Positions 7,956-56,773 of a stretch of 64,000 bases of DNA are shown in pieces. A program made the position numbers and the translations under genes. The DNA comes from a virus. How positions within the stretch are numbered: position 1 is the stretch's first letter; every line of letters starts with the position of its first letter. The stretch is from IMG/VR virus record IMGVR_UViG_3300003323_000950, positions 1 to 64,000 of that record. One strand, 5' to 3'. The notes beneath the pieces are model-generated. The model ran no database searches, was not told where the DNA came from, and was given only the letters and a program-made list of their open reading frames with translations.

Positions 7956-8026
7956 TGCTCCCGTGGACCGATTCGAACGATCACCGCCCGCTTTCGCAGC
8001 GGTTCTGCCAGTTAAACTACACGGGA
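7956..8026 (-). ncRNA. tRNA-like RNA 1 with shrunken anticodon arm
   Basis: TCCCGTG/CACGGGA acceptor, D-arm GTTT-AACTGGCA-GAAC, T-arm GATCG-TTCGAAT-CGGTC; anticodon arm only CGCT-GCGAA-AGCG. Confidence 0.8.
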
Positions 8027-8033
8027 TGACCAT

Positions 8034-8378
8034 TTAATATATTGTTATAGTTCTGTACTGGAAACATCCACCCTGTACGAGCCCGAACTCTGTTTCAATC
8101 CAGGGGCCGCAATTACTGCATGATTGTGATTGGTCTTGGCAGACTGCCCAACCACATCCATAAACAGAACCATAGTTTGCCCACTGGCTACACTGTAGTA
8201 ACATCGGGGCCACAATTTCCTCTTCATCCTCAATTACAAGGATGTAATGCGCGTAGGGCTGAAGTTCTTTTAGATTTTCTACAGTAACCTCGGTTACAGG
8301 TAATGGCTCAGATTTAGTTTGAGCTTGAGAAACAAAAGCGCAAAGCGCCACAACGAGCGTTAAAACTAACTTTTTCAT
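8034..8378 (-). CDS. Secreted protein with Cys-rich C-terminus
   Basis: Signal peptide MKKLVLTLVVALCAFVSQA|Q; 6 Cys in the last ~52 aa. Confidence 0.7.
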   Translation of the reverse strand: MKKLVLTLVVALCAFVSQAQTKSEPLPVTEVTVENLKELQPYAHYILVIEDEEEIVAPMLLQCSQWANYGSVYGCGWAVCQDQSQSCSNCGPWIETEFGLVQGGCFQYRTITIY

Positions 8379-8462
8379 AAAATGCCCTTACTTTACCCCC
8401 GGGCCAGAGGTTAAATTGTTAAATATTCTACCCGTTTCCTGAATCAATGTCGTGTTTCATAT

Positions 8463-8804
8463 CTACTTTCCGGTTGGTGGTTCAGTGTACGTAATGACTA
8501 CTTTTTTGCCGTCGTATTTTACAGTGGTATTGTCGGTGTGCACCTCTCTGGGCAATCCCCCTACGCTATCTATCACGTTGCCTGAGCCGAGATCTTTACT
8601 CCCTTCCTCTGAATTCCATATCCTAGGTTCTTTGGATATCTCTATTGAAGGTGTATTATCACCAAACACCCGCCCAGTGTATGAAGCCAGTGGTATGGGC
8701 CAAATGATAGGCCCTCCAGTATTAGTGTATTTTTTGGCAAATTCGGCCCATGATTCATAGCCCGCATACTGAGCGACTTTATCCTTTGCTTCCTGTAGTG
8801 TCAT
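8463..8804 (-). CDS. Hypothetical protein
   Basis: N-terminal MTLQEAKDKVAQYAGYESW; clean ORF. Confidence 0.65.
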   Translation of the reverse strand: MTLQEAKDKVAQYAGYESWAEFAKKYTNTGGPIIWPIPLASYTGRVFGDNTPSIEISKEPRIWNSEEGSKDLGSGNVIDSVGGLPREVHTDNTTVKYDGKKVVITYTEPPTGK

Positions 8805-8904
8805 GTTATTGTTTTTAACTGGGCCCTATCCGGCGTCAGGCCCGTTGATCCTTGCGCTTTGCCGGATCAGAGTTAATCATTCCCCATAAATTGCCGGGGT
8901 GGCG

Positions 8905-9411
8905 TTATTTTTTTGATTCAGAGATCATAGAATTCATTATGGCTATAAACTCATCAGTATCATGATGCCTGTAATATTTTATACCTCCTTCAAGAGCATT
9001 CCTAACGTTATCACGATGTATGTACCATTTATAACTTTTTGTTGTTGTCTGGATTGCATTTACGCCGAATTTCTTGGCAATATCAATTACGTCCATAGGA
9101 TGGAGACTGCCGCAGAAACTGCAACAACGGTCGCCGTTAGGCATTTTATTCCATACATCTATGTTTTCCTTTTTTTCCCAAGGTCCATATTCAGACATTC
9201 TACGACCACATGTCTGTCTTTCCAACAGATCAATTTCTGATTTATCAATAACAACAAACTCTTTTTCGACTTCGTATTTATGTTGCCGGTACGGCGTACT
9301 ACTATCAGAAAATAAGAATCTGAGCAAATAATCTCCACTTTCGTGAAATCCAACATGCTCTACAATGTGACCAGATCCGTTGTTTCTTTTTAGGTAATTT
9401 AAAATTTCCAT
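8905..9411 (-). CDS. Hypothetical protein with CCSFCGSLHP motif (start MEILNYLK)
   Basis: Start moved to 9411 to clear the tRNA-like element; putative metal-binding Cys/His. Confidence 0.7.
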   Translation of the reverse strand: MEILNYLKRNNGSGHIVEHVGFHESGDYLLRFLFSDSSTPYRQHKYEVEKEFVVIDKSEIDLLERQTCGRRMSEYGPWEKKENIDVWNKMPNGDRCCSFCGSLHPMDVIDIAKKFGVNAIQTTTKSYKWYIHRDNVRNALEGGIKYYRHHDTDEFIAIMNSMISESKK

Positions 9412-9430
9412 TGTTATATGATGATGATTT

Positions 9431-9513
9431 TGGGTGGATGGCCGGATTCGAACCGGCATTGTCACTGCGAATACTTAAATCACAGCTCGTATTACCATTA
9501 TACGACATCCACC
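9431..9513 (-). ncRNA. tRNA-like RNA 2 (His-like acceptor) with elongated, non-canonical anticodon arm
   Basis: G-GTGGATG/CATCCAC-C acceptor, D-arm GTAT-AATGGTA-ATAC, T-arm GCCGG-TTCGAAT-CCGGC; middle arm GCTGTGA-TTTAAGTAT-TCGCAGT (7 bp, 9-nt loop). Confidence 0.8.
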
Positions 9514-9737
9514 TTTTATCGGCCCCGCTATCCGATTACAACTCGGAAGATCATTTAAGACATAATGCTGTACACTCATCAAATCTTAAATAACATTATC
9601 GCAGGGCACTCGCTTTTAGTGTTTCAAAATAAACCGGCGGCTATTAACCCGTTACATGCCTTACCGCCGCCGGCGCCAGTAATCCTCTCTATGAAGAACG
9701 CCGCAGATACCTGGCATATATCCGCGAATAACAACCA

Positions 9738-10013
9738 TCAAACAATATAGTGCTTTCCGTCGCTCAGCGTGTTATGCTTTGCGTGTTGCATATTGATAAA
9801 TTCTTCCTTAACCCATTCTTTCACCTCCAACAGGGTCACCGAGAACTTACCGCTCAAATCTTCAAACTCGGTCCTGGCCAGATCTTCAAGATTGTACTTG
9901 GTATCTTCTGTGATCTCTCCTGTTTCAAGAGCAATCTTAAACAGGCCGGGATACTTCGTAATAAAAGCCTTAGCGCTTTGTCTTGCTTTCTGTTCTGCTT
10001 CCGTCTTATTCAT
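9738..10013 (-). CDS. Hypothetical protein, probably leaderless mRNA
   Basis: ATG only 4 nt after a TACATTTA -7 box. Confidence 0.7.
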   Translation of the reverse strand: MNKTEAEQKARQSAKAFITKYPGLFKIALETGEITEDTKYNLEDLARTEFEDLSGKFSVTLLEVKEWVKEEFINMQHAKHNTLSDGKHYIV

Positions 10014-10017
10014 GATG

Positions 10018-10049
10018 TAAATGTAACTTCAGGTTATTTAGAAAGCAAC
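10018..10049 (-). promoter_or_regulatory. Promoter with operator
   Basis: GTTG-N20-TACATTTA; GTAAC-TTCAG-GTTAT. Confidence 0.7.
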
Positions 10050-10063
10050 AATATTTTTAATTT

Positions 10064-10639
10064 TTATTTCAAAACAGCCGCGTACCCCTCTTCGGTGAGG
10101 CGCTTATGCAATTCCTCAGCCTTATGCATGTCGTTGATCGTTACGGTTACTATCCAACCGTTTTTCACATCTTCAGTTGTTTCGTCGGCCTTTGGGGTCA
10201 GGTTAAACTCGACTCTTCTGTTTTTCTTAAGTGAATCGAAGTTTGTGTTTACCGATAGCCAATCCGGTTGAATGTCAAATGTGAACTTCAAGTAGCCTTC
10301 ATTGGTCACCGTTCCGAATTGGCTACTGATCGCCAGAAGATTCTTTTTCGCTTCTTCAGCGTTGGCGCCGGGAACCAGAAGGTAAGGGATCTTGATCGGC
10401 TCTACATTTTCCATCCGGAAAACATACCGGCGTTGATTGCCATCGATAAGGTATAGCTTTTCGTCCTGCGGATTCTTCCACAGCACGAACGGGGACAGCA
10501 GCCCCTGGTTTATTAAACTGCTTCGAAGGCGGGCGTAATTGCTCTTCTTGAGCTCTTTAAGGCCTCCCTGAATATCCACCGGGTCTCGGTAATCTATAAC
10601 AGGTAGTTGTGATAGGTTTGGGTTGATGTTGATTTTCAT
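10064..10639 (-). CDS. ParB/Srx N-terminal domain protein
   Basis: LRSSLINQGLLSPFVLW...YLIDGNQRR. Confidence 0.8.
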   Translation of the reverse strand: MKININPNLSQLPVIDYRDPVDIQGGLKELKKSNYARLRSSLINQGLLSPFVLWKNPQDEKLYLIDGNQRRYVFRMENVEPIKIPYLLVPGANAEEAKKNLLAISSQFGTVTNEGYLKFTFDIQPDWLSVNTNFDSLKKNRRVEFNLTPKADETTEDVKNGWIVTVTINDMHKAEELHKRLTEEGYAAVLK

Positions 10640-10644
10640 CGTTT

Positions 10645-11103
10645 CTATTCGAGTTTATTGATTCTATCTATTGGCAGCACGATCTCGCTGTCGTATGAGT
10701 TTTTGACTGTTACCCATTTTCCAGATATCTGCTCTTCTGTGATTTTCGGGTATTGAACGGCGAGCCATGCTTCTTTGTCCTTTATGCCAGATATGTGTTT
10801 GAAATCGCGATCGATCGCCATTATTATACCGCATCGGGAAACATCCAGTGAATCGCATACGCGGTCGCCCAAGCGGATGATGTCGTCGCTTTTGCTTACA
10901 AAATCGATGTGGCTAACATCGTCGCTCACTGCTGTAGCGGTGATTGTCGCGCGTATCAGCGAGATGTCCGCATCGAAGAAATCCTCCGACGCGGCAAGAA
11001 TCGCTTTCTTGATAAGTTTTAGATGGTGATTGTTGACTGGAGTATCTGTAACCAGGTCCAATTTATAGCTAGTTTTATACTCGCTGTTGCTTTTCATTTT
11101 CAT
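10645..11103 (-). CDS. Hypothetical protein
   Basis: ORF in operon. Confidence 0.65.
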   Translation of the reverse strand: MKMKSNSEYKTSYKLDLVTDTPVNNHHLKLIKKAILAASEDFFDADISLIRATITATAVSDDVSHIDFVSKSDDIIRLGDRVCDSLDVSRCGIIMAIDRDFKHISGIKDKEAWLAVQYPKITEEQISGKWVTVKNSYDSEIVLPIDRINKLE

Positions 11104-11135
11104 AGTTAAGGATGTTTACAGCGAATATAAACAGG

Positions 11136-11972
11136 CTAGTCCATTTTGTCGTGCGGCAATATTTCATGCTCTGGCGGCGAAGGCGGCAAGATAGTATCGA
11201 AGATGCTGTCGAAGTTCAATGCATGTTTGATCCACATCTTAGTATCAAGCGTGAAATCAGATTTGAGCATCCATTCGGCATATTGCCGGTCCGATGTTAT
11301 CGTTTTGTTAATGTTCTTTCCGAAGTTGTAAACGATGTGTCTGTTCTCGTTCAGCGCAAGCTTACCGGCAAAGTCAACGATCTGTTTGCCGTTTGTTGCT
11401 ATTTTGTGGTACTCTTCGATGCCTTCTCCGATAACATCGGAATGATTGTCTACCTGGCAAGCAAAAACTATTTTTGCTACCTCAGTATCGTACTCAGCGC
11501 CGTGGGCCTTCTTGTCGTCCATCTCCAGGCCGGTGTAGTGCTTGTAACAGGCGCCGAGTGTACGCGGCATGATAACTGATTGATTCTTCAGCGTGTCGAT
11601 GAAACGGGTTTCCTTGTTTATTACACCATGATGGCCAGCGCGTAAAAGCTCTTCGGCCAACAGCGGCAAATCAAAGCCCATGATATTGTGGCCTGCCAGA
11701 TCACAGCCACTAATGAAGTTGGCAATTACAGAAGCGACTTCAGAGAACGGCGGATGGAAAGCAAGTAATTCATCGGTAATACCTGTCACTTCTACGGCGC
11801 CAGGCGACATGGGCACAGTAGGGTTGACATAGAAACTGATTTTGTCGATAATTTCTTCATGACTGAGATAGCGCTGAAGATCAACCTTTACCATGGAAAT
11901 CTCTGCTATCCTGGCGGTGGCTGGATTTGTATCCGTGGCCTCAAGATCGAAGAATACTACTGGTCTACTCAT
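11136..11972 (-). CDS. DnaQ/DEDDh 3'-5' exonuclease (Pol III epsilon-like)
   Basis: FFDLEAT (ExoI), GHNIMGFDLPLL (ExoII), AHGAEYDT (ExoIII). Confidence 0.92.
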   Translation of the reverse strand: MSRPVVFFDLEATDTNPATARIAEISMVKVDLQRYLSHEEIIDKISFYVNPTVPMSPGAVEVTGITDELLAFHPPFSEVASVIANFISGCDLAGHNIMGFDLPLLAEELLRAGHHGVINKETRFIDTLKNQSVIMPRTLGACYKHYTGLEMDDKKAHGAEYDTEVAKIVFACQVDNHSDVIGEGIEEYHKIATNGKQIVDFAGKLALNENRHIVYNFGKNINKTITSDRQYAEWMLKSDFTLDTKMWIKHALNFDSIFDTILPPSPPEHEILPHDKMD

Positions 11973-11981
11973 TGGTTTATT

Positions 11982-13625
11982 TTAGTTTGATTGTGTCTCT
12001 GCAGATGTCTTCTTCGCGCGCATGTCCGCTCGGGCCTTGGCTGAGGCAGCTTTCATAACTGCCTTGTCGTCGATAGAAGTCTGGCCGATCAATAACGCCT
12101 TTGATTTATCCTGTCCGTTGCCCATGGAAGCGAGGAATACAATATCAAGAAGTAAAAATTCAATTCGCTTCTTATCCTTGGCGGGGCTCGTCGATGTGTT
12201 ATTGTTAAGGTTGTCTACGATTTCGTCAAAGTCCAATGTGAAGAATACATCTTCTGATATCTCGACACCTGGTTTGATATCCATCGGCGTCCAGTGTTCA
12301 CCATCAAGCAGCGCCTGAACATTCAAAGTGAGGTCGTACTTTTTACATAGATCATATACAACTTTGTTCTCAAGCTGGATCTCTGACCAAATCTTGGCGA
12401 TGGCGATGATCTGCGCCATGTTATGCAGGCCGGTATCGCGCCGGCATTCATTATCGCGAAAAGCTTCCCAAAGGAGGTTATCGTAATTAGCCTCGGCTGC
12501 TGCTTTGAGATCCATCTGTTCTGCCTGCTCCCGGCTCACTTCTGGCTGAGGCGTTGAATCTATAGGCTCAGGTTTTTTCTCTTCAGTCTTAGATGAATTA
12601 ATAATCCGTATGTATCCGGATTCGATTGCTTTTTCGTGGCTTTTGGATGGACCGACGAAAACGGCATATACCAGATCCTTTAAGCTTTTTTCCTTCTTGG
12701 CATCTACTGGCTGATAATTGTCAATACTTATGATGTCGCCGAGATCTTTGTAGTGTTTTTCAGCACCAGGATATCGGGCTGCATAAACCACGGTTCGCAT
12801 TTTTTCGCTGTACTGGCGATGAAGGTCTTGATAATGCGCAATGTGTTTATCTCGATAACAGGAAAGGTCGAGGCATTTATCTGAATCTGTCATATCCTTG
12901 AACAGTCCCGGCATCGTTCGCTTCATGCATGACATGCAAGAACCGCATGCAGCTAATTTTTCAGACGACACATCGAAATCAGCCCAGGCCAAAGGCATAA
13001 GGACATTGTGATCGAAGAAAGCTTTCAAATCCTTCAGTCCCGAAAACATGGGCTGTTCTACGCCGTTTACGATCACATTGACGATTGTCATATTCAGCGC
13101 TTCCTTCTGCAATTTCTGCTCTAGCTGCGAAATCTTTATGGCTGCTGTTACTGGTAGAATATCCTTCTCTAAATACTGCTTAGCCTCGGGAATGAGATTA
13201 ACGAGCCGGATGCGGCTATATACGTACTCCTCTGTCTTGCCAAATTTATTGGCTATATCGATAAGCTGCACGCCTCGGCGCTTCTTCAGTATGCTGTCGT
13301 ATGCCTCTCCTTCATCCAGAGGTGTAAGATCCTCACGGTTCAGGTTTTCAGCCACTTGCATGTCGAATACCTGATCATCGTTAAGCTCCAATATTTTACA
13401 TGAAATATTGGTCCATCCAAGCGCGGTAGCAGCCCTGAATCGACGTTCTCCAAATACAATTTCATAGACCCCTGTAGGCAACAGCCGAACACCAAGCGGC
13501 TCCAGAAGACCATGCTGGTTCATACTGGTCGCAAGCTCTTGAATATTTGATTCTGAGAAGTGTTTACGTGGGTTGGTAGGGCTCGTGCGGATCAGAGCCA
13601 AATGTAGTGATGTGTATTTTTCCAT
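11982..13625 (-). CDS. ParB/RepB/Spo0J family protein with Cys cluster
   Basis: NPRKHF...GLLEPLGVR...YEIVFGERRFRA...ENLNREDLTPLDEG; HTH; CMSCMKRT...CLDLSC. Confidence 0.9.
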   Translation of the reverse strand: MEKYTSLHLALIRTSPTNPRKHFSESNIQELATSMNQHGLLEPLGVRLLPTGVYEIVFGERRFRAATALGWTNISCKILELNDDQVFDMQVAENLNREDLTPLDEGEAYDSILKKRRGVQLIDIANKFGKTEEYVYSRIRLVNLIPEAKQYLEKDILPVTAAIKISQLEQKLQKEALNMTIVNVIVNGVEQPMFSGLKDLKAFFDHNVLMPLAWADFDVSSEKLAACGSCMSCMKRTMPGLFKDMTDSDKCLDLSCYRDKHIAHYQDLHRQYSEKMRTVVYAARYPGAEKHYKDLGDIISIDNYQPVDAKKEKSLKDLVYAVFVGPSKSHEKAIESGYIRIINSSKTEEKKPEPIDSTPQPEVSREQAEQMDLKAAAEANYDNLLWEAFRDNECRRDTGLHNMAQIIAIAKIWSEIQLENKVVYDLCKKYDLTLNVQALLDGEHWTPMDIKPGVEISEDVFFTLDFDEIVDNLNNNTSTSPAKDKKRIEFLLLDIVFLASMGNGQDKSKALLIGQTSIDDKAVMKAASAKARADMRAKKTSAETQSN

Positions 13626-13667
13626 ATAAAAAAAGGGACGTTTCTTTTGTAAGGGGACGGCATTTGG

Positions 13668-14135
13668 CTACTTCAAGTCATCAGAGACTTTATAACCGAG
13701 CTCGCAGAGCAGGAAAATGATAGTGCCGATGTTGTCGGGAAAGTCCAACATCTCGCCATCATTCTTCATGCGGTAAATACTCCAGTTTTTGGTAATGAAT
13801 ACGACAGAGCCATCGTATCCAAGCATAATCTGCTTTTCGCTTGGAATGACGTTTAGCGGTTCGCCAAGGCCTTTACCGCCAAATCTCAGATGCGCGATGA
13901 TGTCGGCCAGATGCTGCTCGGTCAGGGAAGAAAAAGACCTCAGCGCAGGCGTAACCATATCACCATCCACCCACTGCGAGCGCTCGCCAGACTTGATCTG
14001 GACGCCGCTGTCCTCCATATCCACGTTTTCAATCTGCCCAGTCTGGTTGTGCTCCTCGCCAAGGACCATAGCGAAAGCACCGATATAATGCTTTAAAAAG
14101 GTCCACCGGCTTAATTTTTCCATTTGAATGGTCAT
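13668..14135 (-). CDS. Hypothetical protein (start MTIQMEKL)
   Basis: Start moved below the operator/promoter at 14154-14174. Confidence 0.7.
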   Translation of the reverse strand: MTIQMEKLSRWTFLKHYIGAFAMVLGEEHNQTGQIENVDMEDSGVQIKSGERSQWVDGDMVTPALRSFSSLTEQHLADIIAHLRFGGKGLGEPLNVIPSEKQIMLGYDGSVVFITKNWSIYRMKNDGEMLDFPDNIGTIIFLLCELGYKVSDDLK

Positions 14136-14153
14136 AAAAATTGGGGTTTTAGT

Positions 14154-14174
14154 AAAATGTAACTTCGCATTACA
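14154..14174 (-). promoter_or_regulatory. Operator overlapping a -7-like box
   Basis: TGTAAC-TTCGC-ATTACA; minus strand TACATTTT. Confidence 0.65.
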
Positions 14175-14251
14175 AATAAATGCTATTTGCATGCGAAGTC
14201 AAAATATTTTATCTAAAATTTGGAAAAATGACCTGCCAGGAGTATTGCGCC

Positions 14252-14470
14252 CTATTTCTGATAGGCGAGGCTGAAATCTTGGGCTTTCTCGTTCCAGATA
14301 ATGTAACGGAAACGCCCCATAACGGTATAATCAAGCTTGCCGTTTACAAGATTGTAATCTAACGCCTGATTGCTGGTGTAGGTTATGCCGCGGGCAGCTT
14401 TGAACTCCTCGAGGCTCAGTAGCTTATATTCAACTCCATCGATGATGATGTTTGGCCGCGGATATTCCAT
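14252..14470 (-). CDS. Small hypothetical protein, possibly DNA-binding (start MEYPRPN)
   Basis: TAATG coupling with the upstream gene; LSLEEFKAARG...ALDYNLVNGKL resembles excisionase-type wHTH. Confidence 0.55.
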   Translation of the reverse strand: MEYPRPNIIIDGVEYKLLSLEEFKAARGITYTSNQALDYNLVNGKLDYTVMGRFRYIIWNEKAQDFSLAYQK

Positions 14471-16290: not shown

Positions 16291-16300
16291 AAATTTTTAA

Positions 16301-33085: not shown

Positions 33086-34749
33086 TACACACCCCCTGTT
33101 ACGTTTACAGTTATATCGGAAATATTTATTGATGGTATCGACTGCTCCACCAACTGCAGCACGTTTTTGTTGTATGGATACGTGTAAAACTCGTAGTTGT
33201 CACCTGATACGTGGTTGCCGTTGATCTGAAACTCGATCTCAGGATAGCTGTGTAATGTGTTAACCGTAAACTGCCCGAGGAATACACCGCTTTTATACAA
33301 CTCATAGTTCGAAACCGTCAAAAATCGGATCAGCCATTTGATTGTAAATGCGCTTCCTGGTAACTGCGTTCTTGTCCAGTTTAGGACATTCGTCGGTGTC
33401 ACGAGGTTCTTGGCGTACGGACGTATCGAAATTATTGTAATGTCCGAATAACTCACGCCCGATACGGCTTCGATAACCTCGTACAGATTACCAACGACTA
33501 TTATTCCACCTATAGCCTGATTCTCCGGCTCAAATAAATCAACCAGTGCATCTTTTACATCCGATGCGACCACCGAGTTTGAAAAACCTGGATAGGCGAC
33601 AACATTTATGGTTAAAATGATGTCTATAACGCCTGCGCGCTCAGCTTTCACCTTCAGTGAAAGAATCTTGCGTTCATCTATGAATACCTGGACTGCGGAA
33701 ATAAGTGTAGGTGTGGCGACACCGCCTCCTTCCGGTACAATATACACGTGTACTATATCGTCAGTATCGCAGTTGAAGGATACGCCCGCGCGCTCCACAC
33801 CGGCGACAAGCTCTGCCAGATCAATGAAATCAGGCTTTGTCACGCCTCTGTACTTTGTTCTTATGGACAGCGGAATACGCTTTTGAAGCTTAGTGAGATC
33901 CTCGAAGGAGGCCGCACCGTTGGCGGAAGCGTCGTTGGTAACAGACAAAACCTCTGCCCCAGGTACAACAATCGTCGAGTTTATGGTGTTTATAAGGCCT
34001 GCACCGACCTGGCCATCTACGCCCAGCGTTACTTTATAATCAACGGTAATAGCCTGTCCGCTGGGAGGAATCTTTCCATTTACGTTATCGCTAAAGTAAA
34101 TGTACATTTTGGTATCCTCGTCTATGGCCTGCACAAAGTGCTCGCTGGCAGGAAGGCTGAACACAAATGTATCCTGCGCCTGCCACGCTATGGCGTTCAC
34201 ATATGCGATAACACTCATGTCGGCTACGTTCTCTTCCAAAGCGAAGACTTGATTTGGATTACCGTTGCTGGTGCCGAGTAGTACCCCGGTAACTTGATCC
34301 CATTGTTTTGACTCCACTTGTACTGACGTGGCTCCGGTTAATATTGTTCCCGAAGTAGTGGTCATATAGACGATGCCATCGTTTGTCTGCACGCGGGTAC
34401 CGATCGGTATTACAATGTTTCCAGTGGCGGGTATACTTGATGTAAACCGAAGTGTCGCGGTAGCAGGCGTTGCTCCTTTTACCCGGTAGTCATAAGACTT
34501 TGCTATTTTAACCGCAGAGGCAAATTCCTGAGCGGTCGATAAGAATCTTTCCCTGGCTGTGGCATCGATGTAATACCCGAGCATCTCAATCAGCGCTGCC
34601 CATATCGATATGCCTTTTACCCATGGGTTGGTTTCGGTATGATCCGTTATCTCTGGAACCAAGCTCTGGAACTTGGTCAAAACGTTCGCTTTTATCTGCT
34701 CGTAGGATCTGTCAAAATATCCTACCCATCCGGGATTCCTTAGTACCAT
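33085..34749 (-). CDS. Baseplate J / T4 gp6-like wedge protein
   Basis: DRSYEQIK...YYID...ERFLSTA...ATATLRF...RGVTKPDF. Confidence 0.9.
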   Translation of the reverse strand: MVLRNPGWVGYFDRSYEQIKANVLTKFQSLVPEITDHTETNPWVKGISIWAALIEMLGYYIDATARERFLSTAQEFASAVKIAKSYDYRVKGATPATATLRFTSSIPATGNIVIPIGTRVQTNDGIVYMTTTSGTILTGATSVQVESKQWDQVTGVLLGTSNGNPNQVFALEENVADMSVIAYVNAIAWQAQDTFVFSLPASEHFVQAIDEDTKMYIYFSDNVNGKIPPSGQAITVDYKVTLGVDGQVGAGLINTINSTIVVPGAEVLSVTNDASANGAASFEDLTKLQKRIPLSIRTKYRGVTKPDFIDLAELVAGVERAGVSFNCDTDDIVHVYIVPEGGGVATPTLISAVQVFIDERKILSLKVKAERAGVIDIILTINVVAYPGFSNSVVASDVKDALVDLFEPENQAIGGIIVVGNLYEVIEAVSGVSYSDITIISIRPYAKNLVTPTNVLNWTRTQLPGSAFTIKWLIRFLTVSNYELYKSGVFLGQFTVNTLHSYPEIEFQINGNHVSGDNYEFYTYPYNKNVLQLVEQSIPSINISDITVNVTGGV

Positions 34750-49863: not shown

Positions 49864-49915
49864 AAAAATATTGGGTTTTGGTAAAAATGATGACTAAAAA
49901 GTATATGATACCGGT

Positions 49916-51370
49916 TTACCGGAGTGATTCTGCAAGGTGCTTGTTACCCAGCACGGTCTTTGACTTCGGTGGTGTATTCGGATCGTCAGTCTGCTTGCTG
50001 CTGCGGAAGCTGATGTCTGTTGATCCGCATTTTGCGCAGTGGCCACCGAACTCAGTAACCGCCTTTCCGCCGAACAATTTAAGTTTCGCGTTGACTGCCT
50101 CAAGGCTTGTCGCTGCATCGATCTCAGCTTCGATCGTAGGATCAACTTTATCGCCTGCAAACACGCCGTACAAACGCTTCGCTTCTTTCTTCGAAGCTTC
50201 CAGTACTTCAGTGCCTACTTTGGCCAGCGCTGCAGAAGCTGTCTTCTCGGCTTCCAACGTTGTCTTAGCTGCCTTAATGGTTGCTATCTCAGCTTCAAGG
50301 CTCACCACCTTAGCATCCGCTGCTTCCTTCTCGGCGGTAACCTTCTGGAAGTTTTCTGCATTCGTTTTCATTTGGGTGAAGGCTTCTTTTGAAGCGATCA
50401 CTTTTTCGGCGTCTGCTTTCGAAAACTTACCGGTGCCGATGTCCGCAGCCGTTGTACCGAAAATGCTCGCCAAGAGTTCTAACAGATCCTTGTTCATTTT
50501 TAAATTGTCGTTTTGTTCTTTATCAAAATGTAATGCGGAGTTTTGTAAATGTAATAGCTTTTGATCGTCGAAGCAATCGCACACAAAGTACTTGCGGTTA
50601 GGTTCATATATACGATTCTCTGGATCATCGGAGAACTTGTTCTTCGCGTACATGCTGGCATGATCTATATTAATCAACTCACCGTTTGGCGAAAGCATCT
50701 TCGCATAAGGATCAGCGCCTGCCCAAACCAAAGAGCTTTCTTCGTAACCGATGATCTTTGTGGCTATACGGCGAACCATCTCGTCGTCGATAATTTCACC
50801 AAGGTGCCAGTAAAAGTCTCCGTTAAATTCGAACTCGTGTGATGCTTCCCAGTCGAACAATACGGTAACCGATGCAGATGTTATAGGCGATACAGGTGAA
50901 GACATCCGGCGCACCAATTCGGGGTTTAAGATACCATCTATAACGAATGGAGCCTCAATGCCGCCAGGTACTTCGTCACCATTTGAGTTTTTATATCCAG
51001 GAACCCATTCGGTTTCCCCCACATTGCCTATTTCTTTGCCTACCATTTGAATGTGATTCAAGTAAGCAGGTTTATCTCTCAGCAAAGAGGTAGATTTCTT
51101 CAGCACCGTACCTTCAGAGAAATCTGTTGCTTTCCAGGAACCGCCGCCTACTATTGTCGCAGATATGTGCCGGAAAGGAAACATATAGAAGTCTTCCTTC
51201 TTTGGTATAAGCGGTATATCAAAGCTCTGCGCCGATGTCTTTCGATCCTTCGGCAACTCAAGCCCCATGCTTTCGAATATTCTCTTCGCTGCCTGTTCCT
51301 GAAGCAGCTTATCTGTATCGGATTGGACGCGGAATAACGTCAATGAACCCTTACCTCCGAACTTTGCCAT
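49916..51370 (-). CDS. Prohead protease/scaffold
   Basis: N-terminal protease-like region (YLNH, SASV, EESSLVWAGADP); C-terminal Ala/Glu/Lys coiled coil; start at ATG 51370. Confidence 0.75.
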   Translation of the reverse strand: MAKFGGKGSLTLFRVQSDTDKLLQEQAAKRIFESMGLELPKDRKTSAQSFDIPLIPKKEDFYMFPFRHISATIVGGGSWKATDFSEGTVLKKSTSLLRDKPAYLNHIQMVGKEIGNVGETEWVPGYKNSNGDEVPGGIEAPFVIDGILNPELVRRMSSPVSPITSASVTVLFDWEASHEFEFNGDFYWHLGEIIDDEMVRRIATKIIGYEESSLVWAGADPYAKMLSPNGELINIDHASMYAKNKFSDDPENRIYEPNRKYFVCDCFDDQKLLHLQNSALHFDKEQNDNLKMNKDLLELLASIFGTTAADIGTGKFSKADAEKVIASKEAFTQMKTNAENFQKVTAEKEAADAKVVSLEAEIATIKAAKTTLEAEKTASAALAKVGTEVLEASKKEAKRLYGVFAGDKVDPTIEAEIDAATSLEAVNAKLKLFGGKAVTEFGGHCAKCGSTDISFRSSKQTDDPNTPPKSKTVLGNKHLAESLR

Positions 51371-51467
51371 GATGATTATATTGGTTTGATATTGCGAAAC
51401 TACCAAAAAAATATATAATCGTTAAATCAATGCTTTTCATAACATCATCATTGACGTATATTTAAGT

Positions 51468-51962
51468 ATGAAAACAGCTATCGATATTACTGGTCAAAAG
51501 TTTGGAAGGCTTACCGTTTTGAAAAGAAACGGTGAAAGCAAGAACGGCATGTCTTTATGGTTATGCGTTTGCGAATGTGGTAGGAAAATAACTACTCGAT
51601 CGAATGGATTGAGAAGCGGAAGGGCGAAAAGTTGTGGCTGTCATAGGAAAGATCGAATGAAGACATTAAATCTTGATCATGGTTTAAGAAACCATTATAT
51701 CTATAACATTTGGAGAGGCATTAAAAAGCGTTGCTATAATAAGAAACATAAAAGCTATAATGATTATGGAGGTCGTGGAATCACGATGGCTCCTGAATGG
51801 CTAGATGACATAGTGGCTTTTTATAATCATGTTGGTGAAAGGCCATCGTCAACTCATCAAATTGATAGGGAAAATAATAATGGAAATTATGTTCCAGGAA
51901 ACGTTCGATGGGTAACACCTAAAGTCAATTCAAATAATAGAAGGAAATCTAAACGGCCTTGA
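51468..51962 (+). CDS. Free-standing HNH homing endonuclease
   Basis: GQKFGRLTV...WLCVCECG...SCGC...WRGIKKRC...YGGRGI...IDRENNNGNYVPGNVRW; AT-rich, opposite strand. Confidence 0.9.
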   Translation: MKTAIDITGQKFGRLTVLKRNGESKNGMSLWLCVCECGRKITTRSNGLRSGRAKSCGCHRKDRMKTLNLDHGLRNHYIYNIWRGIKKRCYNKKHKSYNDYGGRGITMAPEWLDDIVAFYNHVGERPSSTHQIDRENNNGNYVPGNVRWVTPKVNSNNRRKSKRP

Positions 51963-54507
51963 AGTAGGCAATACATCTTCCTCTGCAATGCGGGTGATAC
52001 GACGGCAGTGCAATACCTTTCGCCTGCAGTGATTTCGGATCCATGGTCACAAACTGATCAAGCTTAATCGTGGTGGCGAATGGCGTATATTCCGGTGTTT
52101 TCGCTATGCCTTCCCGAAACAATGTCTCGTATTGCTGCACACTGTTTTTAACGCTGAATATTTTGCCATTCATATGCTTGCAGTATCCGCACGTGAGTCT
52201 ATCCATCACCTCAACAACCTGGTACTCGGCAATATCTGCCTGATTCAGGTATAGAAGGTTTCCGATGTTTCGCGCTTTGTTGGATGTAGTCTCTATGATT
52301 CGGCGGATCTTCCACGCTTCAAGTAGTACCTCCCTGGCAAATTCGAGTATAAATTCCTGTATCAAGCTACTGCCCTTGCCAATCGGAACATCGCCCTGTT
52401 CAAATTTCTGCTTCACCCAGTTTACAATTCGCTCTTGGGTATCCGGATCAGTTATAAATTTGCCCAAATAGGTATGGTCTACTTCTTCCAGGAAGGCAAT
52501 CGCGCGGGCATCCAACAGATTGAATGCAGCATCCGGGACGGTTACGAACGATACAGGTGATCGGGAGTATTCACTCGATTCAGAAAATATCGATTTGTCC
52601 TGGCGGTAAAAGCTGTAGATATCTTCTATGTTATTTGTGACAATGTCATGAACCGGCGTCACGAAATTGTTTTCCCAGCCCTCCAGAAGGCCGTAATACA
52701 TAGCTGCTTGAACTTCACCAACTAATGCGGTTTCGCCTAAAGCTTTGAATTCTCTGGTTATTGACTTCTTTGACTTGTTAACGAAGGTTTCGAACTGGGT
52801 ATTAACAGCGCCCAGATATGCCTTCAGAAAATCCACCAGATGGGCATCGTGATAATTGCCTATTTCGTCGAAAGAAGCGGCCCCGGAGCAATCTTCCGGG
52901 ACCGCATAATCAAAAGGGGGCGCTTCGATGTTAAGCTTTTTACGGATACGGTCCAGCTTTTTTTCAGCGGTGGTCTGCGCTTTATTATCTTCCGATCCTC
53001 CTACTGCCTTCGACGGTAATATATTGGTTATTGGTGCATCAAGCTCAGGATCGTCGACTCCTGCGTAATTGGCTGCTGCTTTCTGGCTCATAAAGCCTGA
53101 GAAATAATACCTGGCGGCATTTTCAATGCGCTCTTTCTTGGCCTGTTCGTCTTTGAGTTCATCGGTTATCGATGCCCGCTTGTATCGGATATTGCATACC
53201 GCCGGTCTAAATCCAGCCAGGCGGAGCTCGAGCATAAACACCCGTGATTTGAATTCAGCGAGTGTGCGCTGGAAATTGGCAACCTGCTGCGTCATCTTGG
53301 TAAGCACTACGCGGCCGAACGTCTCCGTAGTCGCGTAGTTCTCGCCGTGCATATTCGGGTCCTGCTTGAGACCTGAATAGATCAGGGATTTGACCATCTT
53401 CATTAATTGCTCACCGGACGCGCCGTTCAGTTCAGATCCCTGTAGGGTGAACTCGTGATTATCTTTGTAACCCACCGTGAACCCACGAGAAAAACCATTT
53501 TCAACATCCTGTCTTACGCTGTTCAGATAGTTCCTGAGATAATTTTCATACTCTTCAGGTGATTTTTGTTGCTGTGGAGGTGCTTTCAACAATACCGACA
53601 GAAAGCCCATCATCCCGAGCCGGCGCATCATGTTCTTGAAGTTACCGATCATATCCTTTTCCGTCAGCAGGTCTTCAAGCGCTGAAGCGAAAGGTGGAAC
53701 GGCAACCGGCGATATGCCCAGCCGGCGTATACCAAGGTAGGTGTACGTCGCCGGATTGAGCTGTATATAGCCAGGATATAGCCCGGTTCCGTTATTTGAG
53801 TTTACGCCTACTATTTGCTGCAGGGGAACGTGAACAGACTTAACCTTGTCGTAGCCAAACCGGATGTAATATGGATCAACTCGAACAATGCTCTGGATGC
53901 CTTTAAGATTCGGCATGATCACAGCCTCTGCGCTTAGTGCGCCGGAGTACGCCATTTGGGTAAGAAGATCATTGTCGAGGGAGTCTTCGCCAGAGGCAAA
54001 TTCGTACCAGCTCTTTACTCGAGTCTGGAGATACTTGCGCATCTCAACGCTTTGTTTCTCGCCGGTCTCGCCGAAGTCTATGTCATAATCTGTATTGCCG
54101 AGGGCAACGATATTTTCAACGGCCATAGATACGTGGCGATCCTGGAAAGCGTACTTCTGTAGGGTTTTGAGTATGGTGTAGTCGAACTCGTTATCCACCG
54201 GGGCGTTCATGTTGCCGAAGCCATAGTTCCCTTCGTACAGAGAGACCCGTCCGCTGGCGATTGGAGCCATGACGTTATTCGTCGTGTCATCCACCTTGTT
54301 CGACATCGCTGCGTACTTCTGTTCCTCTTCCTGGAAAACCTTGCGGATTATGTCACCATATACCCTTTCGAATTCCGCTTCATTGATCTGCTGCGGGCTT
54401 GGTTCAGAAACAACTGCGGCTGATACGGCCGCTGGCTGGGATTCTTTTTCCGGCGCAGCCTTCACAGACTTACCCCAGCCGAAAGAAAAATTGACATTGA
54501 AACCCAT
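51949..54507 (-). CDS. Portal protein fused to a MuF/SPP1 gp7-like minor head domain
   Basis: Portal-like central region; C-terminal RRIIETT...MDRLTCGYCKHMNG...LPSYHPHCRG MuF signature. Confidence 0.8.
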   Translation of the reverse strand: MGFNVNFSFGWGKSVKAAPEKESQPAAVSAAVVSEPSPQQINEAEFERVYGDIIRKVFQEEEQKYAAMSNKVDDTTNNVMAPIASGRVSLYEGNYGFGNMNAPVDNEFDYTILKTLQKYAFQDRHVSMAVENIVALGNTDYDIDFGETGEKQSVEMRKYLQTRVKSWYEFASGEDSLDNDLLTQMAYSGALSAEAVIMPNLKGIQSIVRVDPYYIRFGYDKVKSVHVPLQQIVGVNSNNGTGLYPGYIQLNPATYTYLGIRRLGISPVAVPPFASALEDLLTEKDMIGNFKNMMRRLGMMGFLSVLLKAPPQQQKSPEEYENYLRNYLNSVRQDVENGFSRGFTVGYKDNHEFTLQGSELNGASGEQLMKMVKSLIYSGLKQDPNMHGENYATTETFGRVVLTKMTQQVANFQRTLAEFKSRVFMLELRLAGFRPAVCNIRYKRASITDELKDEQAKKERIENAARYYFSGFMSQKAAANYAGVDDPELDAPITNILPSKAVGGSEDNKAQTTAEKKLDRIRKKLNIEAPPFDYAVPEDCSGAASFDEIGNYHDAHLVDFLKAYLGAVNTQFETFVNKSKKSITREFKALGETALVGEVQAAMYYGLLEGWENNFVTPVHDIVTNNIEDIYSFYRQDKSIFSESSEYSRSPVSFVTVPDAAFNLLDARAIAFLEEVDHTYLGKFITDPDTQERIVNWVKQKFEQGDVPIGKGSSLIQEFILEFAREVLLEAWKIRRIIETTSNKARNIGNLLYLNQADIAEYQVVEVMDRLTCGYCKHMNGKIFSVKNSVQQYETLFREGIAKTPEYTPFATTIKLDQFVTMDPKSLQAKGIALPSYHPHCRGRCIAYFKAV

Positions 54508-54544
54508 TTCGAATACTTTTTAGGGAGTAAATGTAACCAAAAAC

Positions 54545-54817
54545 TTAGTGGCTTGCTGACCACTGGAACCCCAGGTAGATCGCGAGTAATATGAATGAAA
54601 TTGATAGCGCCCAGAATAAAGGCACGTGTTTATCTGTAAAGGTGATCTTTTTTACAACGGTGGCGATTACCAAAGCGAGGAAGAGAGCGCCGGCGATCGG
54701 CCACGCGGCGCTATCTGATACGTCGTTTATGTACGGGCTGGCGATGGTGCCTGAAACGATTATGCCGGCCACAATCCGGAATATAAAGTTGTTCAATGCT
54801 GCTATTAAAGTGCTCAT
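54545..54817 (-). CDS. Small three-TM membrane protein
   Basis: Three hydrophobic helices. Confidence 0.7.
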   Translation of the reverse strand: MSTLIAALNNFIFRIVAGIIVSGTIASPYINDVSDSAAWPIAGALFLALVIATVVKKITFTDKHVPLFWALSISFILLAIYLGFQWSASH

Positions 54818-54832
54818 GGTTTTTTGAGCAAG

Positions 54833-56125
54833 TTACGGAAACATGGACAACTGCATGTCTCTGTTGCGGATAGCAAATTCAATCCGGGCGCGGGATATAT
54901 TGATGTTGTGTTCGTCGAGCTCTATCCCGGTATATAGCATTTTCTCGAACATGCATGCTTTGCCGGTTGAGCCGCTGCCTGAGAATGGGTCTATGACGTG
55001 GCCTCCTTTCGGCGTAACCAGATTGATCAGGTACCGCATTAGCGCGGTTGGCTTAACGGTCGGGTGATTGTTTGGGCTTGATTTGTCAGTACCTTCAGAC
55101 TGAAAGGAACCCGGGTTTTTGGTGCCGCTGCTCCAGAGCAGTGGCATAGATGCTAAAGCCTCACATCCTTCGTTTCTATCGAGGCGTGATGTCTTTGCGC
55201 AGTAAAAGAAGCGGGCTGCAGAACCTTCGTCGCCATAGCTTACATTTTCAGAACCGAAAGCTCTCACATGCTTGCCGTAGGTATTATTACCAGAATATCC
55301 GGTGGCTGTTTCGTTGGTAAAATTGGAATCGCCTGACTTAGTATATGGGAACATCTCCATTATGCATTCTGAACCGTCGTGAATGAGGTTTGCCGGCCAG
55401 CGGCCATTCTCACCACCAGATACAGCTTCAGCGTGCTTCTCACCGTTGTTGTTGCCTGGTGTATACGATGCGTTGTTAAGTTTTGGCTGGCTGCTTACAG
55501 TCCACGGTCCTAAGCCTTTTATGGATGACTCAGCGATGTTCAGCGCTCCCACACCGAAATGATCCATATTACTCTTAACGGTCCCATTCAAAGGCTTTCG
55601 GGCGACAAGGATAGGTTCATGAGCAGGCTTAAGCGCAGTGCCATAACCCTCGTGTTTACCTTCCAGATTGTGAGACTTGGGGAAGCCAGAACCGAATACC
55701 CAAAATATTTGATCGCGTACTTCGAAACCTGCTTCCTCGACGCCGCATACCATCCGGTGATATGTGCGCGGGCTCGCGAATACGATCATGTGCGCACCGG
55801 GTTTCAATATGCGGTACATCTCCGAAGCCCATGTAAATGTGAAGTCCTGGAACTGGCGCATCGCTACTATATCGTTTTTGTAGGTGCCGGCTGAAAGAGA
55901 CTTTCCAAAACCATTACTAACTCTGCCTTCGCGGACGGCTTCACTTTTGGCTTTATTGTCTCGAATAGCATGTTGCTTTTCGATATCGAACTTATCCCAG
56001 GCCTTGCCCATGAAGCGGATCCCGTACGGCGGATCAGTAACGCAAGAATCAAAATGATCTGCGGGCAGCTGCTTCATTACCTCCTCGCAGTATCCGGTGT
56101 AAAGTGTGTAGGGTTTAGCGGTCAT
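54833..56125 (-). CDS. Orphan DNA amino-methyltransferase (N6-A/N4-C, beta class)
   Basis: VTDPPYG, GSGFPKS, ALKPAHEPI, GRWPAN, ARFFYCAK, HPTVKP, IDPFSGSGSTG. Confidence 0.93.
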   Translation of the reverse strand: MTAKPYTLYTGYCEEVMKQLPADHFDSCVTDPPYGIRFMGKAWDKFDIEKQHAIRDNKAKSEAVREGRVSNGFGKSLSAGTYKNDIVAMRQFQDFTFTWASEMYRILKPGAHMIVFASPRTYHRMVCGVEEAGFEVRDQIFWVFGSGFPKSHNLEGKHEGYGTALKPAHEPILVARKPLNGTVKSNMDHFGVGALNIAESSIKGLGPWTVSSQPKLNNASYTPGNNNGEKHAEAVSGGENGRWPANLIHDGSECIMEMFPYTKSGDSNFTNETATGYSGNNTYGKHVRAFGSENVSYGDEGSAARFFYCAKTSRLDRNEGCEALASMPLLWSSGTKNPGSFQSEGTDKSSPNNHPTVKPTALMRYLINLVTPKGGHVIDPFSGSGSTGKACMFEKMLYTGIELDEHNINISRARIEFAIRNRDMQLSMFP

Positions 56126-56165
56126 TTTATTTTACTCTGGCTCCTGGATCTATTGAAGTGTCATA

Positions 56166-56450
56166 TCAATATGCCCCATGATCAAGCATATCACTTGACT
56201 TTACAGATTTTTCAAACTCGTACTCTTTTAGAATTTTAACCAGATAGATCTTTCCGGTGGTCTCTTTGTGGTACTTATTCAAAAGGTCATCATACTCTGC
56301 CGGCAAAGCCGATCGAACTTTATCTGGCTGCGTGAGCAGCGCATACGCGACTAAAGTATCGCTTTCGCTTAGTTCCTGGTGCACTGGGCCTCTGTCGTCG
56401 AAGATCGCCATAACGCGCTCCGGAATGTTAATAACGGGAAGTTTATTCAT
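56166..56450 (-). CDS. Hypothetical protein
   Basis: ORF in operon. Confidence 0.6.
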   Translation of the reverse strand: MNKLPVINIPERVMAIFDDRGPVHQELSESDTLVAYALLTQPDKVRSALPAEYDDLLNKYHKETTGKIYLVKILKEYEFEKSVKSSDMLDHGAY

Positions 56451-56674
56451 CGTCGTAAGGGGTTAAAAGAAACCGGCCACCATCTGAACCTAAGTTTCTT
56501 CCTATGGCAGCCGGAAATTCATAAAAGTGTAAGTGGTCGTCATGGGGCCATTGCTTGTTAAGAACGTCGGTGCGAATCATGACCTTCGCATTGTGCCCAG
56601 GTGTTGGCTTTCGCTGAACCCGGGCGGATGTAGTTTAAAGTTATCAATCAATCAAACAGCATCCATATCTTAAA

Positions 56675-56773
56675 GGCGCACGGCAGGATTGTCTGTTTTT
56701 ACTGGACTTATACAATTTGCCAGTGCCTTACCTGCAAATGTGTCCGGCGCATTTGATCGCCGCCACGTGCGCC
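56675..56773 (-). ncRNA. tRNA-like RNA 3: no anticodon arm, expanded T-loop
   Basis: GGCGCACG/CGTGCGCC terminal stem contiguous with GCAGG/CCTGC stem; 5' TGGCG...CGC as in tRNA-Leu D-arm. Confidence 0.55.

What the first reader, a model, noticed from the sequence alone, without database searches (positions are those of the whole stretch)
7956..56773. A set of tRNA mimics that keep acceptor and T stems but lack a usable anticodon arm
Seen: none of the tRNA-shaped elements here is canonical. Element 1 (7956-8026) has a shrunken anticodon arm, element 2 (9431-9513) an elongated one with a 9-nt loop, and element 3 (56675-56773) has none; a fourth T-arm-like hairpin lies at 57378-57394. Acceptor and T stems are fully paired in the first three although their sequences are unrelated. 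Random decay should not spare those stems while changing only the decoding arm. Inference: selected non-decoding tRNA mimics, e.g. decoys for tRNA-targeting defence toxins or sensors, or RNase P/Z processing signals.
Basis: partly seen in the sequence, partly recalled or inferred. Interest (0 to 1): 0.75.

Follow-up and report, generated by a model that had tools for sequence, protein, structure and literature searches.

The report
Anticodon-less tRNA look-alikes in a phage
A 76-kb phage that has no normal tRNA gene carries two RNAs that keep the tRNA body but have lost the loop that reads codons; two distant relatives carry three more of the same kind, so these look like maintained tRNA mimics, although what they do is untested.

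Summary
Two of the four elements are real. Element 1 (7957-8026) and element 2 (9432-9513) lie on the minus, coding strand of a complete 75.7-kb myovirus, probably of Bacteroidota. Both keep a 7-bp acceptor stem, a 5-bp T stem with loop UUCGAAU, and a D arm with GG.

- Element 1 looks like tRNA-Gln (U1:A72, G73). A GAAA tetraloop replaces its 7-nt anticodon loop.
- Element 2 looks like tRNA-His (G-1:C73). It has a 7-bp anticodon stem and a 9-nt loop, and scores 42 bits on Rfam tRNA.
- Elements 3 and 4 have no T-loop and no model support; they are not shown to be tRNA-like.

Together, elements 1 and 2 bracket a three-gene cassette.

No orthologues were found, so covariation could not be tested. 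However, distant relatives defined by the portal protein (G316, G312) carry three more tRNA-shaped elements whose anticodon stems end in 3-4-nt loops. All 33 tRNA-shaped hits in 553 kb of unrelated phage loci were canonical.

Best reading (about 0.5): these are maintained, non-decoding tRNA-derived RNAs handled by host tRNA enzymes. Their role is open: processing or stability marks, decoys, or amino-acid carriers. The main rival is recent pseudogenes. There is no expression evidence.

The parts
7957..8026 (-). Element 1: a tRNA-Gln-like body (U1:A72, G73) whose anticodon stem is capped by a GAAA tetraloop. It starts 7 nt after the stop codon of ORF114.
   Evidence: Sequence and fold. ARAGORN -ps calls tRNA-??? 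(aa). Strict scan. 24 of its first 25 nt match tRNA-Gln(CTG) of Streptomyces phage Satis.
7914..7935 (-). Intrinsic-terminator-like hairpin (9 bp, 7 G-C, followed by TCTTTTT), about 20 nt after element 1.
9432..9513 (-). Element 2: a tRNA-His-like body (G-1 at 9513 pairs with C73 at 9433) with a 7-bp anticodon stem and the 9-nt loop UUUAAGUAU. C73 lies 21 nt upstream of the ORF168 start codon.
   Evidence: Rfam tRNA 42.3 bits; ARAGORN; fold z -5.0. The T arm and 3' acceptor strand match host-type and phage tRNA-His.
8905..9411 (-). ORF168: a conserved protein of unknown function, first gene of the bracketed cassette. In several other phages its family sits inside or beside tRNA gene arrays.
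   Evidence: 104 homologues; alignment A1; tRNA arrays near homologues in L123, L131, L132, L150 and L165. No Pfam or PHROG family. AF2 model pLDDT 87.8 with no PDB match.
8463..8804 (-). ORF113: unknown function, middle gene of the cassette.
8034..8378 (-). ORF114: a small Cys-rich protein with a signal-peptide-like N-terminus, last gene of the cassette. Its stop codon lies 7 nt before element 1.
56675..56773 (-). Element 3: a multi-branch fold closed by an 8-bp helix, 8 nt after the stop codon of ORF104. It is not tRNA-like by any model.
57370..57505 (-). Element 4 hairpin (57378-57394) inside a possible 136-nt four-way fold. This is unsupported.

Best explanation
Elements 1 and 2 are tRNA-derived genes, of tRNA-Gln type and tRNA-His type, kept as non-decoding tRNA mimics.

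What the sequence shows:
- The parts that tRNA-handling enzymes read are intact: the acceptor helix, the T arm, the D/T-loop elbow, and an N73-C-A tail of the host-gene kind.
- The anticodon loop has been replaced by a stable cap (GAAA tetraloop) or by an over-long 7-bp helix with a 9-nt loop. Neither can pair with a codon on the ribosome in the normal way.

Inferred mechanism:
- The two elements are transcribed with the three-gene cassette that they bracket.
- RNase P, 3' trimming and the CCA-adding enzyme of the host cut them out. This yields stable small tRNA-shaped RNAs and sets the ends of the cassette mRNA.
- Element 2, with G-1:C73, is probably also charged by HisRS.

Which downstream role matters is not settled. 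It could be mRNA punctuation or stability, titration of a host factor or defence factor that reads the acceptor or elbow, or an amino-acid carrier outside translation.
For: 1. tRNA origin. Rfam scores element 2 at 42.3 bits. The strict scan finds only these two elements in the genome, against 0.245 expected. Canonical U8, A14, G18G19, A21 and T-loop UUCGAAU are present in both. The closest matches are phage tRNA-Gln and host or phage tRNA-His.

2. Non-decoding. The loops are 4 nt and 9 nt, and ARAGORN gives only 2-nt or 4-nt 'anticodons'.

3. Maintenance rather than decay.
- Every stem of element 2 is fully paired, including the lengthened one, and its fold z-score is -5.0.
- The element 1 acceptor differs from its best tRNA-Gln match by a C:G to G:C swap that keeps the pair.
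- Distant relatives that share 17-28 genes with this phage carry three more elements of this type: G316A, G316B and G312. They have intact acceptor and T arms and 3-4-nt caps or a branched insert.
- G316A has A19/U56 in place of G19/C56, which keeps the elbow pair.
- In 553 kb of unrelated phage loci, all 33 hits of the same tRNA-body model are canonical tRNAs. Fisher's test gives p = 1e-5 for 5/6 against 0/33. Without the window's own two elements, and adding three canonical tRNAs from MT121964, it gives p = 0.0035 for 3/7 against 0/33.

4. Processing context.
- Element 1 and the G312 element both start 6-7 nt after a stop codon and precede a terminator-like hairpin.
- All five elements have N73-C-A. 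This is the commonest tail of host-phylum tRNA genes: 15 of 33 have it and only 1 of 33 encodes CCA.

5. Precedent. Irregular tRNAs with G-1 are charged by HisRS but are not used in translation (PMC5389517).
Against: - No orthologue of either element was found, so there is no covariation test.
- The five elements share no sequence or locus, so the family-level pattern rests on few and possibly non-independent cases. Model R1 was trained on them; only the canonical versus non-canonical classification is independent.
- Most relatives have no such element at all.
- No canonical Bacteroidota -7 promoter box lies upstream of element 2.
- Element 1 has one G.G mismatch in its capped stem and fails the Rfam tRNA model.
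- The ORF168 family lives in tRNA arrays elsewhere. The cassette may therefore simply have been imported with two flanking tRNAs that then broke.
Confidence: 0.5

Rival explanations
1. They are tRNA pseudogenes. A tRNA-His gene and a tRNA-Gln gene arrived with the ORF168 cassette from another phage's tRNA array. Each was inactivated by lesions in the anticodon arm, and both are now neutral relics that have not yet decayed further.
For: - ORF168 homologues sit in tRNA arrays in other phages.
- The cassette is not shared with relatives of this phage.
- More distant relatives carry canonical tRNAs: G317 tRNA-Gly, and MT121964 tRNA-Met, Pro and Leu.
- Element 1 has a mismatch and fails Rfam.
- No orthologues show conservation.
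Against: - In element 2 the altered arm is 8 nt longer yet forms a perfect 7-bp helix, which takes several coordinated changes.
- Four of the five family elements end the anticodon stem in a tight 3-4-nt cap, which is not what random lesions give.
- No stem-breaking change is seen in any acceptor or T stem of the five elements.
- G316A shows a compensated elbow pair.
- No pseudo-tRNA of this kind occurs among the 33 control hits.
Confidence: 0.25
2. They are decoys or sponges. The released tRNA-shaped RNAs bind and titrate a host factor or defence factor that recognises the acceptor, T arm or elbow rather than the anticodon. Examples are acceptor-end-modifying or acceptor-cleaving toxins, a synthetase such as HisRS, or EF-Tu. 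Because they cannot decode, they do this without disturbing translation. This is a specific version of the function left open in the best explanation.
For: - The recognition surfaces are intact and decoding is removed.
- The His-type G-1:C73 and Gln-type U1:A72/G73 identity marks are kept.
- The same design recurs in relatives.
- Phage tRNAs are known to counter tRNA-targeting defences (PMC10264068 and PMC11464382, listed; I did not read them in full).
Against: - No defence or toxin partner was identified, and none of the neighbouring ORFs has a known family.
- The known cases use decoding tRNAs with changed anticodon loops, not anticodon-less ones.
- Anticodon nucleases are excluded as targets, because the loop is absent.
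Confidence: 0.15
3. At least element 2 is an odd but decoding tRNA. It would be a His-charged adaptor whose 9-nt loop reads an extended or shifted codon, either as a frameshift suppressor or as a UAA-anticodon reader of UUR codons.
For: - The first seven loop bases, UUUAAGU, look like a normal loop with anticodon UAA and G37.
- ARAGORN reads a 4-base anticodon.
- Expanded loops can decode longer codons in engineered systems (general knowledge; reviews listed).
Against: - The anticodon stem is 7 bp rather than 5, which lengthens the arm.
- Table-11 ORFs tile the window densely, with no sign of recoding or a required frameshift.
- G-1 irregular tRNAs were charged but not used in translation.
- Element 1 and the three elements in relatives cannot decode at all.
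Confidence: 0.05

Closest known systems
Irregular, non-translating tRNAs with G-1 (Mukai et al. 2017, PMC5389517)
   Same: They have a tRNA body with G-1, are charged by HisRS whatever the anticodon, and are not used in translation. They were found in metagenomic polycistrons.
   Different: Those RNAs still have a 7-nt anticodon loop, and some have 8/4 acceptor/T geometry. They are bacterial (Acidobacteria) and lie next to toxin-antitoxin genes. Here the geometry is 7/5, the loop is 9 nt or a tetraloop, and the elements are phage-borne.
YrlA / bacterial Y RNAs (Chen et al. 2014, PMC4201824)
   Same: They are tRNA mimics that carry T- and D-like arms and an acceptor-like stem, are substrates of tRNA enzymes, and are also found in phages.
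   Different: YrlA is encoded next to Ro60 and carries a Ro-binding module. No TROVE gene is present in G000, G316 or G312, and no Rfam Y-RNA hit was found.
Phage tRNAs that escape or neutralise tRNA-targeting defences (PMC10264068, PMC11464382)
   Same: They are phage-encoded tRNA genes whose anticodon loop differs from the host's, with a proposed anti-defence role (titles and abstracts only).
   Different: Those tRNAs still decode. These elements cannot.
mascRNA (MALAT1) and gammaherpesvirus tRNA-like RNAs (from my own knowledge; PMC8457004 listed)
   Same: They are tRNA-shaped, non-aminoacylated elements cut by RNase P/Z that define the ends of a longer transcript. Element 1 and the G312 element likewise sit right after an ORF.
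   Different: Those are eukaryotic systems. No processing data exist here.
Ordinary phage tRNA genes and tRNA pseudogenes
   Same: The origin is the same. ORF168-family genes sit in canonical tRNA arrays in other phages, and more distant relatives have canonical tRNAs.
   Different: There is no 7-nt loop, no U33-NNN-R37 layout, and ARAGORN returns undetermined calls.

Membership tests
tRNA (Rfam RF00005) | Score at or above the gathering cut-off (29 bits) | tested here: inconclusive
   Element 2 scores 42.3 bits, but only because the anticodon arm is treated as a local insert. Element 1 gives no hit at E<=10. Elements 3 and 4 give no hit.
tRNA (Rfam RF00005) | 7-bp acceptor stem, 5-bp T stem, T-loop UUCRANY, and D-loop G18G19 | tested here: met
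   Met for elements 1 and 2. Not met for elements 3 and 4.
tRNA (Rfam RF00005) | 5-bp anticodon stem with a 7-nt loop carrying U33 and a 3-nt anticodon | tested here: not met
   Element 1 has a 4-nt GAAA loop. Element 2 has a 7-bp stem and a 9-nt loop. ARAGORN reports 2-nt and 4-nt 'anticodons'.
tRNA-His identity | G-1 paired with C73 | tested here: met
   In element 2, G at 9513 and C at 9433 pair. The acceptor and T arm are near-identical to Bacteroidota tRNA-His(GTG) and phage Moab tRNA-His. Charging itself is not testable here.
tRNA-Gln identity | U1:A72 and G73, plus the anticodon (U35) | tested here: inconclusive
   Element 1 has U1:A72 and G73, and 24 of its first 25 nt match a phage tRNA-Gln. 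It has no anticodon, which is a main GlnRS determinant (established knowledge).
YrlA / Y RNA | Encoded next to a Ro60 (TROVE) gene, and matches the Rfam model | tested here: not met
   No TROVE match in G000, G316 or G312. No Rfam hit.
tmRNA | tRNA-Ala-like domain plus a tag reading frame | tested here: not met
   ARAGORN finds no tmRNA, and Rfam finds none in the window.
Phage attP carrying a tRNA gene 3' part | An integrase in the genome, with only the 3' part of the tRNA present | tested here: not met
   No tyrosine or serine recombinase was found. Both halves of the cloverleaf are present.
ROOL / GOLLD large RNAs (raised by another reader for 57.1-57.5 kb) | Match to the Rfam models | tested here: not met
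   No hit at E<=10 in 56400-57700.

The most novel reading that the evidence does not exclude
A lineage of roughly 70-kb Bacteroidota-type myophages maintains a class of 'anticodon-capped' tRNA mimics. These are tRNA bodies of defined identity (His, Gln and others) whose decoding loop was deliberately closed off. They would be processed, CCA-tailed and perhaps aminoacylated by the host. They would then act off the ribosome, either as decoys for immune effectors or toxins that read the tRNA acceptor or elbow, or as dedicated aminoacyl carriers.
Probability: 0.2. Interest if true: 0.85.

Novelty: new variant of a known kind. Interest (0 to 1): 0.6.

Why it matters
Phage tRNAs are usually explained by codon supply or, more recently, by escape from anticodon nucleases. 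Both explanations need a working anticodon. A phage lineage that keeps tRNA bodies while closing the anticodon loop would point to a use of tRNA shape that has nothing to do with decoding. Candidate uses are transcript punctuation by RNase P/Z in bacteria, titration of synthetases or EF-Tu, and decoys for defence systems that act on the acceptor end. It would also give annotators a concrete class of elements that tRNA finders skip or label as undetermined. If they turn out to be only pseudogenes, the result is ordinary.

Tried and rejected
- Close relatives. DUF5131, ORF168 and the portal as single queries, plus four DNA patterns, found no orthologous locus in IMG/VR. Megablast against GenBank phages found no match.
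The contigs holding the 60-73% ORF168 homologues and the 50-56% portal homologues, mostly Logan assemblies of about 77 kb, could therefore not be read.
- Sequencing runs: none was listed and no RNA holder was listed.
- The DUF5131-bearing viral contigs L001-L007 are not relatives, since they have no portal match.
- Model R1 found no further elements in the other relatives.
- The ORF168 fold (pLDDT 87.8) has no PDB match at E<=0.001. The protein atlas gave no usable hit. Pfam and PHROGs gave nothing for the cassette genes.
- Loop complementarity. The complement of the element 2 loop occurs once in the genome, which is about the chance level. The anticodon arm has no second copy.
- The attP idea is rejected because there is no integrase.
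- The idea of a Ro60 partner or a phage-encoded CCA enzyme is rejected.
- No canonical TAnnTTTG box lies near elements 1 and 2.
- The 56.4-57.7 kb non-coding stretch has no sequence match in relatives.
- The 11-nt identity of element 2 with the anticodon-stem/variable-arm junction of tRNA-Leu(CAA) was noted but left unexplained.


Full report
**What the window is.** The window is bases 1-64000 of a complete 75,658-bp IMG/VR virus record with direct terminal repeats.
- Nearly all long ORFs lie on the minus strand.
- PHROG matches identify sheath, baseplate, tape-measure, portal and head-protease genes, so this is a myovirus.
- The DUF5131 gene next to element 1 has its best relatives (60-69% identity) in Bacteroidota and Ignavibacteria. 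The host is therefore probably in that group.
- The genome has no integrase of either kind.

**Check of the observation.**
- ARAGORN at default settings reports one gene in the window, at 9432-9512 on the minus strand: 'tRNA-???' with a four-base anticodon.
- Rfam at gathering threshold on the whole window reports nothing. A local search and a genome search both give the tRNA model 42.3 bits at 9433-9512, with the 17-nt anticodon arm replaced by a 25-nt insert.
- At a lowered threshold ARAGORN also reports 7957-8026 on the minus strand as 'tRNA-???' with a two-base anticodon.
- I wrote a strict scan that requires T-loop TTCRANN, a fully paired 5-bp T stem, and a fully paired 7-bp acceptor 55-115 nt apart. 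Over the whole genome it returns exactly these two places. Two hundred shuffles give a mean of 0.245 and a maximum of 2.
- In 579 kb of unrelated loci the same scan gives two ARAGORN-negative hits that lack any other tRNA feature, which is the chance rate.

**Anatomy of element 1** (8026 to 7957, read on the minus strand).
- Acceptor UCCCGUG/CACGGGA, with U8 and A9.
- D stem GUUU/GAAC, with loop AACUGGCA.
- A 4-bp stem plus a G.G mismatch, closed by GAAA.
- A 4-nt variable region.
- T arm GAUCG-UUCGAAU-CGGUC, then discriminator G, then CA.
- The anticodon arm is 14 nt instead of 17. The stem length is kept and the 7-nt loop has become a tetraloop.
- The element starts 7 nt after the stop codon of ORF114. 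A strong terminator-like hairpin follows at 7935-7914.

**Anatomy of element 2** (9513 to 9431, read on the minus strand).
- G-1, then acceptor GUGGAUG/CAUCCAC.
- D arm GUAU-AAUGGUA-AUAC.
- A perfect 7-bp helix with the loop UUUAAGUAU.
- A 6-nt variable region.
- T arm GCCGG-UUCGAAU-CCGGC, then C73, then CA.
- The fold z-score is -5.0.
- C73 lies 21 nt before the ATG of ORF168.

**Elements 3 and 4.**
- Element 3 has only an 8-bp closing helix. Its supposed T arm has 3 bp and no T-loop motif. The fold z-scores are -1.8 and -2.1. Rfam finds nothing, and my tRNA-body model with filters off gives 6.3 bits, E 1.7.
- Element 4 is a 5-bp hairpin with z about 0.
- A larger four-way fold can be drawn around element 4 (57370-57505, z -2.2). 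ARAGORN reports it only at a 90% threshold with a 46-nt 'intron', among 14 mostly absurd calls.
- I do not count either as a tRNA mimic.

**Origin of the two real elements.**
- The 3' third of element 2 matches tRNA-His(GTG) genes of Bacteroidota (24/26 identity in several genomes) and tRNA-His of Streptomyces phage Moab. It also has the His hallmark G-1:C73.
- 24 of the first 25 nt of element 1 match tRNA-Gln(CTG) of Streptomyces phage Satis. It has the Gln-type U1:A72 and G73. At pair 5:68 the two differ by C:G versus G:C, so pairing is kept.
- These database matches are individually marginal (E 0.04-0.06 against 2.3 Gb). They fall at the same tRNA positions, however, and agree with the identity nucleotides.
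- Element 2 also shares an exact 11-mer with the anticodon-stem/variable-arm junction of Bacteroidota tRNA-Leu(CAA). I cannot explain this.

**Context.**
- The two elements bracket ORF168, ORF113 and ORF114, all of unknown function.
- ORF168 belongs to a conserved family of 104 hits with invariant Cys and His residues. In other phages it often lies inside or beside arrays of canonical tRNA genes: L123, L131, L132, L150 and L165. Satis-type Streptomyces phages, where I only examined part of Satis's own tRNA array, also encode it.
- Its AF2 model is confident but has no match among solved structures.
- The cassette is not shared with relatives of this phage. A likely history is import of a piece of a tRNA island.

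**Relatives.**
- No orthologue of either element could be found, so covariation could not be tested.
- A portal alignment reached a family of roughly 70-kb phages that share 17-28 genes with this one in the same order.
- In this family the Rfam tRNA model finds two elements in G316, at 41.4 and 30.4 bits, that default ARAGORN does not call. It also finds a canonical tRNA-Gly in G317.
- My scan finds one more element in G312. Rfam scores it at 16.8 bits, E 0.015.
- All three have fully paired acceptor and T stems.
  - G316A has a 33-nt insert in place of the anticodon arm, ending in a 6-bp helix with a CGGA loop.
  - G316B has a CUGAC-UUA-GUCAG hairpin.
  - G312 has ACAAC-AAAU-GUUGU followed by a long extra arm.
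- G316A has A19 and U56 where tRNAs have G19 and C56. That is a double change which keeps the elbow pair.
- The G312 element starts 6 nt after a stop codon and is followed by a terminator-like hairpin, as element 1 is.
- All five elements have N73-C-A. Among tRNA genes of the host phylum, 15 of 33 have this tail and only 1 encodes CCA.
- A more distant GenBank relative, MT121964, has three canonical tRNAs.

**Control.**
- A covariance model of the tRNA body without the anticodon arm (R1) finds 33 elements in 553 kb of unrelated phage and metagenome loci. Every one is an ARAGORN-canonical tRNA.
- In the family it finds six elements, five of them non-canonical.
- Fisher's test gives p = 1e-5. 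Leaving out the window's own two elements and adding the three canonical tRNAs of MT121964 gives p = 0.0035 for 3/7 against 0/33.
- R1 was trained on the five elements, so detection is circular. The split into canonical and non-canonical is not. The numbers are small and the cases may not be independent.

**Interpretation.**
- Shown: two tRNA-derived elements of His and Gln type with intact enzyme-recognition parts and no usable anticodon loop; the same design in two relatives; and no such design in controls.
- Inferred: they are kept by selection, are cut out by RNase P and the 3' processing enzymes, receive CCA, and in the case of element 2 are charged by HisRS.
- The precedent for the charging step is that G-1 tRNAs with a foreign anticodon are charged by HisRS but are not used in translation (PMC5389517).
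- The role after processing is open. Candidates are punctuation and stabilisation of the cassette mRNA, titration of a factor that reads the acceptor or elbow, or an amino-acid carrier.
- Decoys for anticodon nucleases are unlikely, because the target loop is gone.
- The main rival is that these are young pseudogenes brought in with the cassette. I give this 0.25, because the changed arms are well-formed helices with tight caps rather than broken ones.
- A decoding role for element 2 is unlikely (0.05).

**Limits.**
- There is no expression evidence. No sequencing run was listed.
- No promoter was identified.

Noticed in passing
window 8905-9411 (minus); L123, L131, L132, L150, L165: ORF168 belongs to a conserved protein family of unknown function with invariant Cys68, Cys97 and Cys100 and several invariant Tyr and Lys residues. 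In other phages it often sits inside or beside arrays of canonical tRNA genes. Its AF2 model is confident (pLDDT 87.8) but has no PDB match.
   Followed up: partly
L224 1501-1589 (minus), equal to G316 34140-34228: A tRNA-like element in a distant relative has A19 and U56 in place of the universal G19:C56 elbow pair, which is a compensated tertiary pair. A 33-nt insert replaces its anticodon arm.
   Followed up: partly
L130 10287-10362: ARAGORN calls a 76-nt 'tRNA-Leu(UAA)' of type I length, with no long variable arm and a 6-bp anticodon stem, 5 kb from an ORF168 homologue. This is an unusual tRNA.
   Followed up: no
L131 7087-7172; L132 7250-7335: The tRNA-Gln(UUG) calls are 86 nt long, about 12 nt longer than usual, within large phage tRNA arrays.
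   Followed up: no
window 9465-9475 (minus) against Bacteroidota tRNA-Leu(CAA) in L114 and L117: The 11-mer AAGTATTCGCA in the element 2 anticodon arm is identical to the anticodon-stem/variable-arm junction of host-phylum tRNA-Leu(CAA). This hints at a mosaic origin.
   Followed up: partly
window 56450-57710: This 1.2-kb stretch holds only one convincing gene (56782-57096, PHROG 419, MazG-like). A canonical Bacteroidota -7 box TAAATTTG sits at 57591 (minus). The stretch has no Rfam family and no sequence match in relatives.
   Followed up: partly
window 8064-8084 and 9505-9525: A 21-nt direct repeat (76% identity) includes GGTGGATGT, the 5' acceptor strand of element 2. The second copy lies inside the 3' end of ORF114, 38 nt upstream of element 1. 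This may be chance.
   Followed up: no
L027-L121 (Bacteroidota and related genomes): Only 1 of 33 distinct tRNA genes encodes CCA. 15 of 33 have N73-C-A and most have C74.
   Followed up: partly
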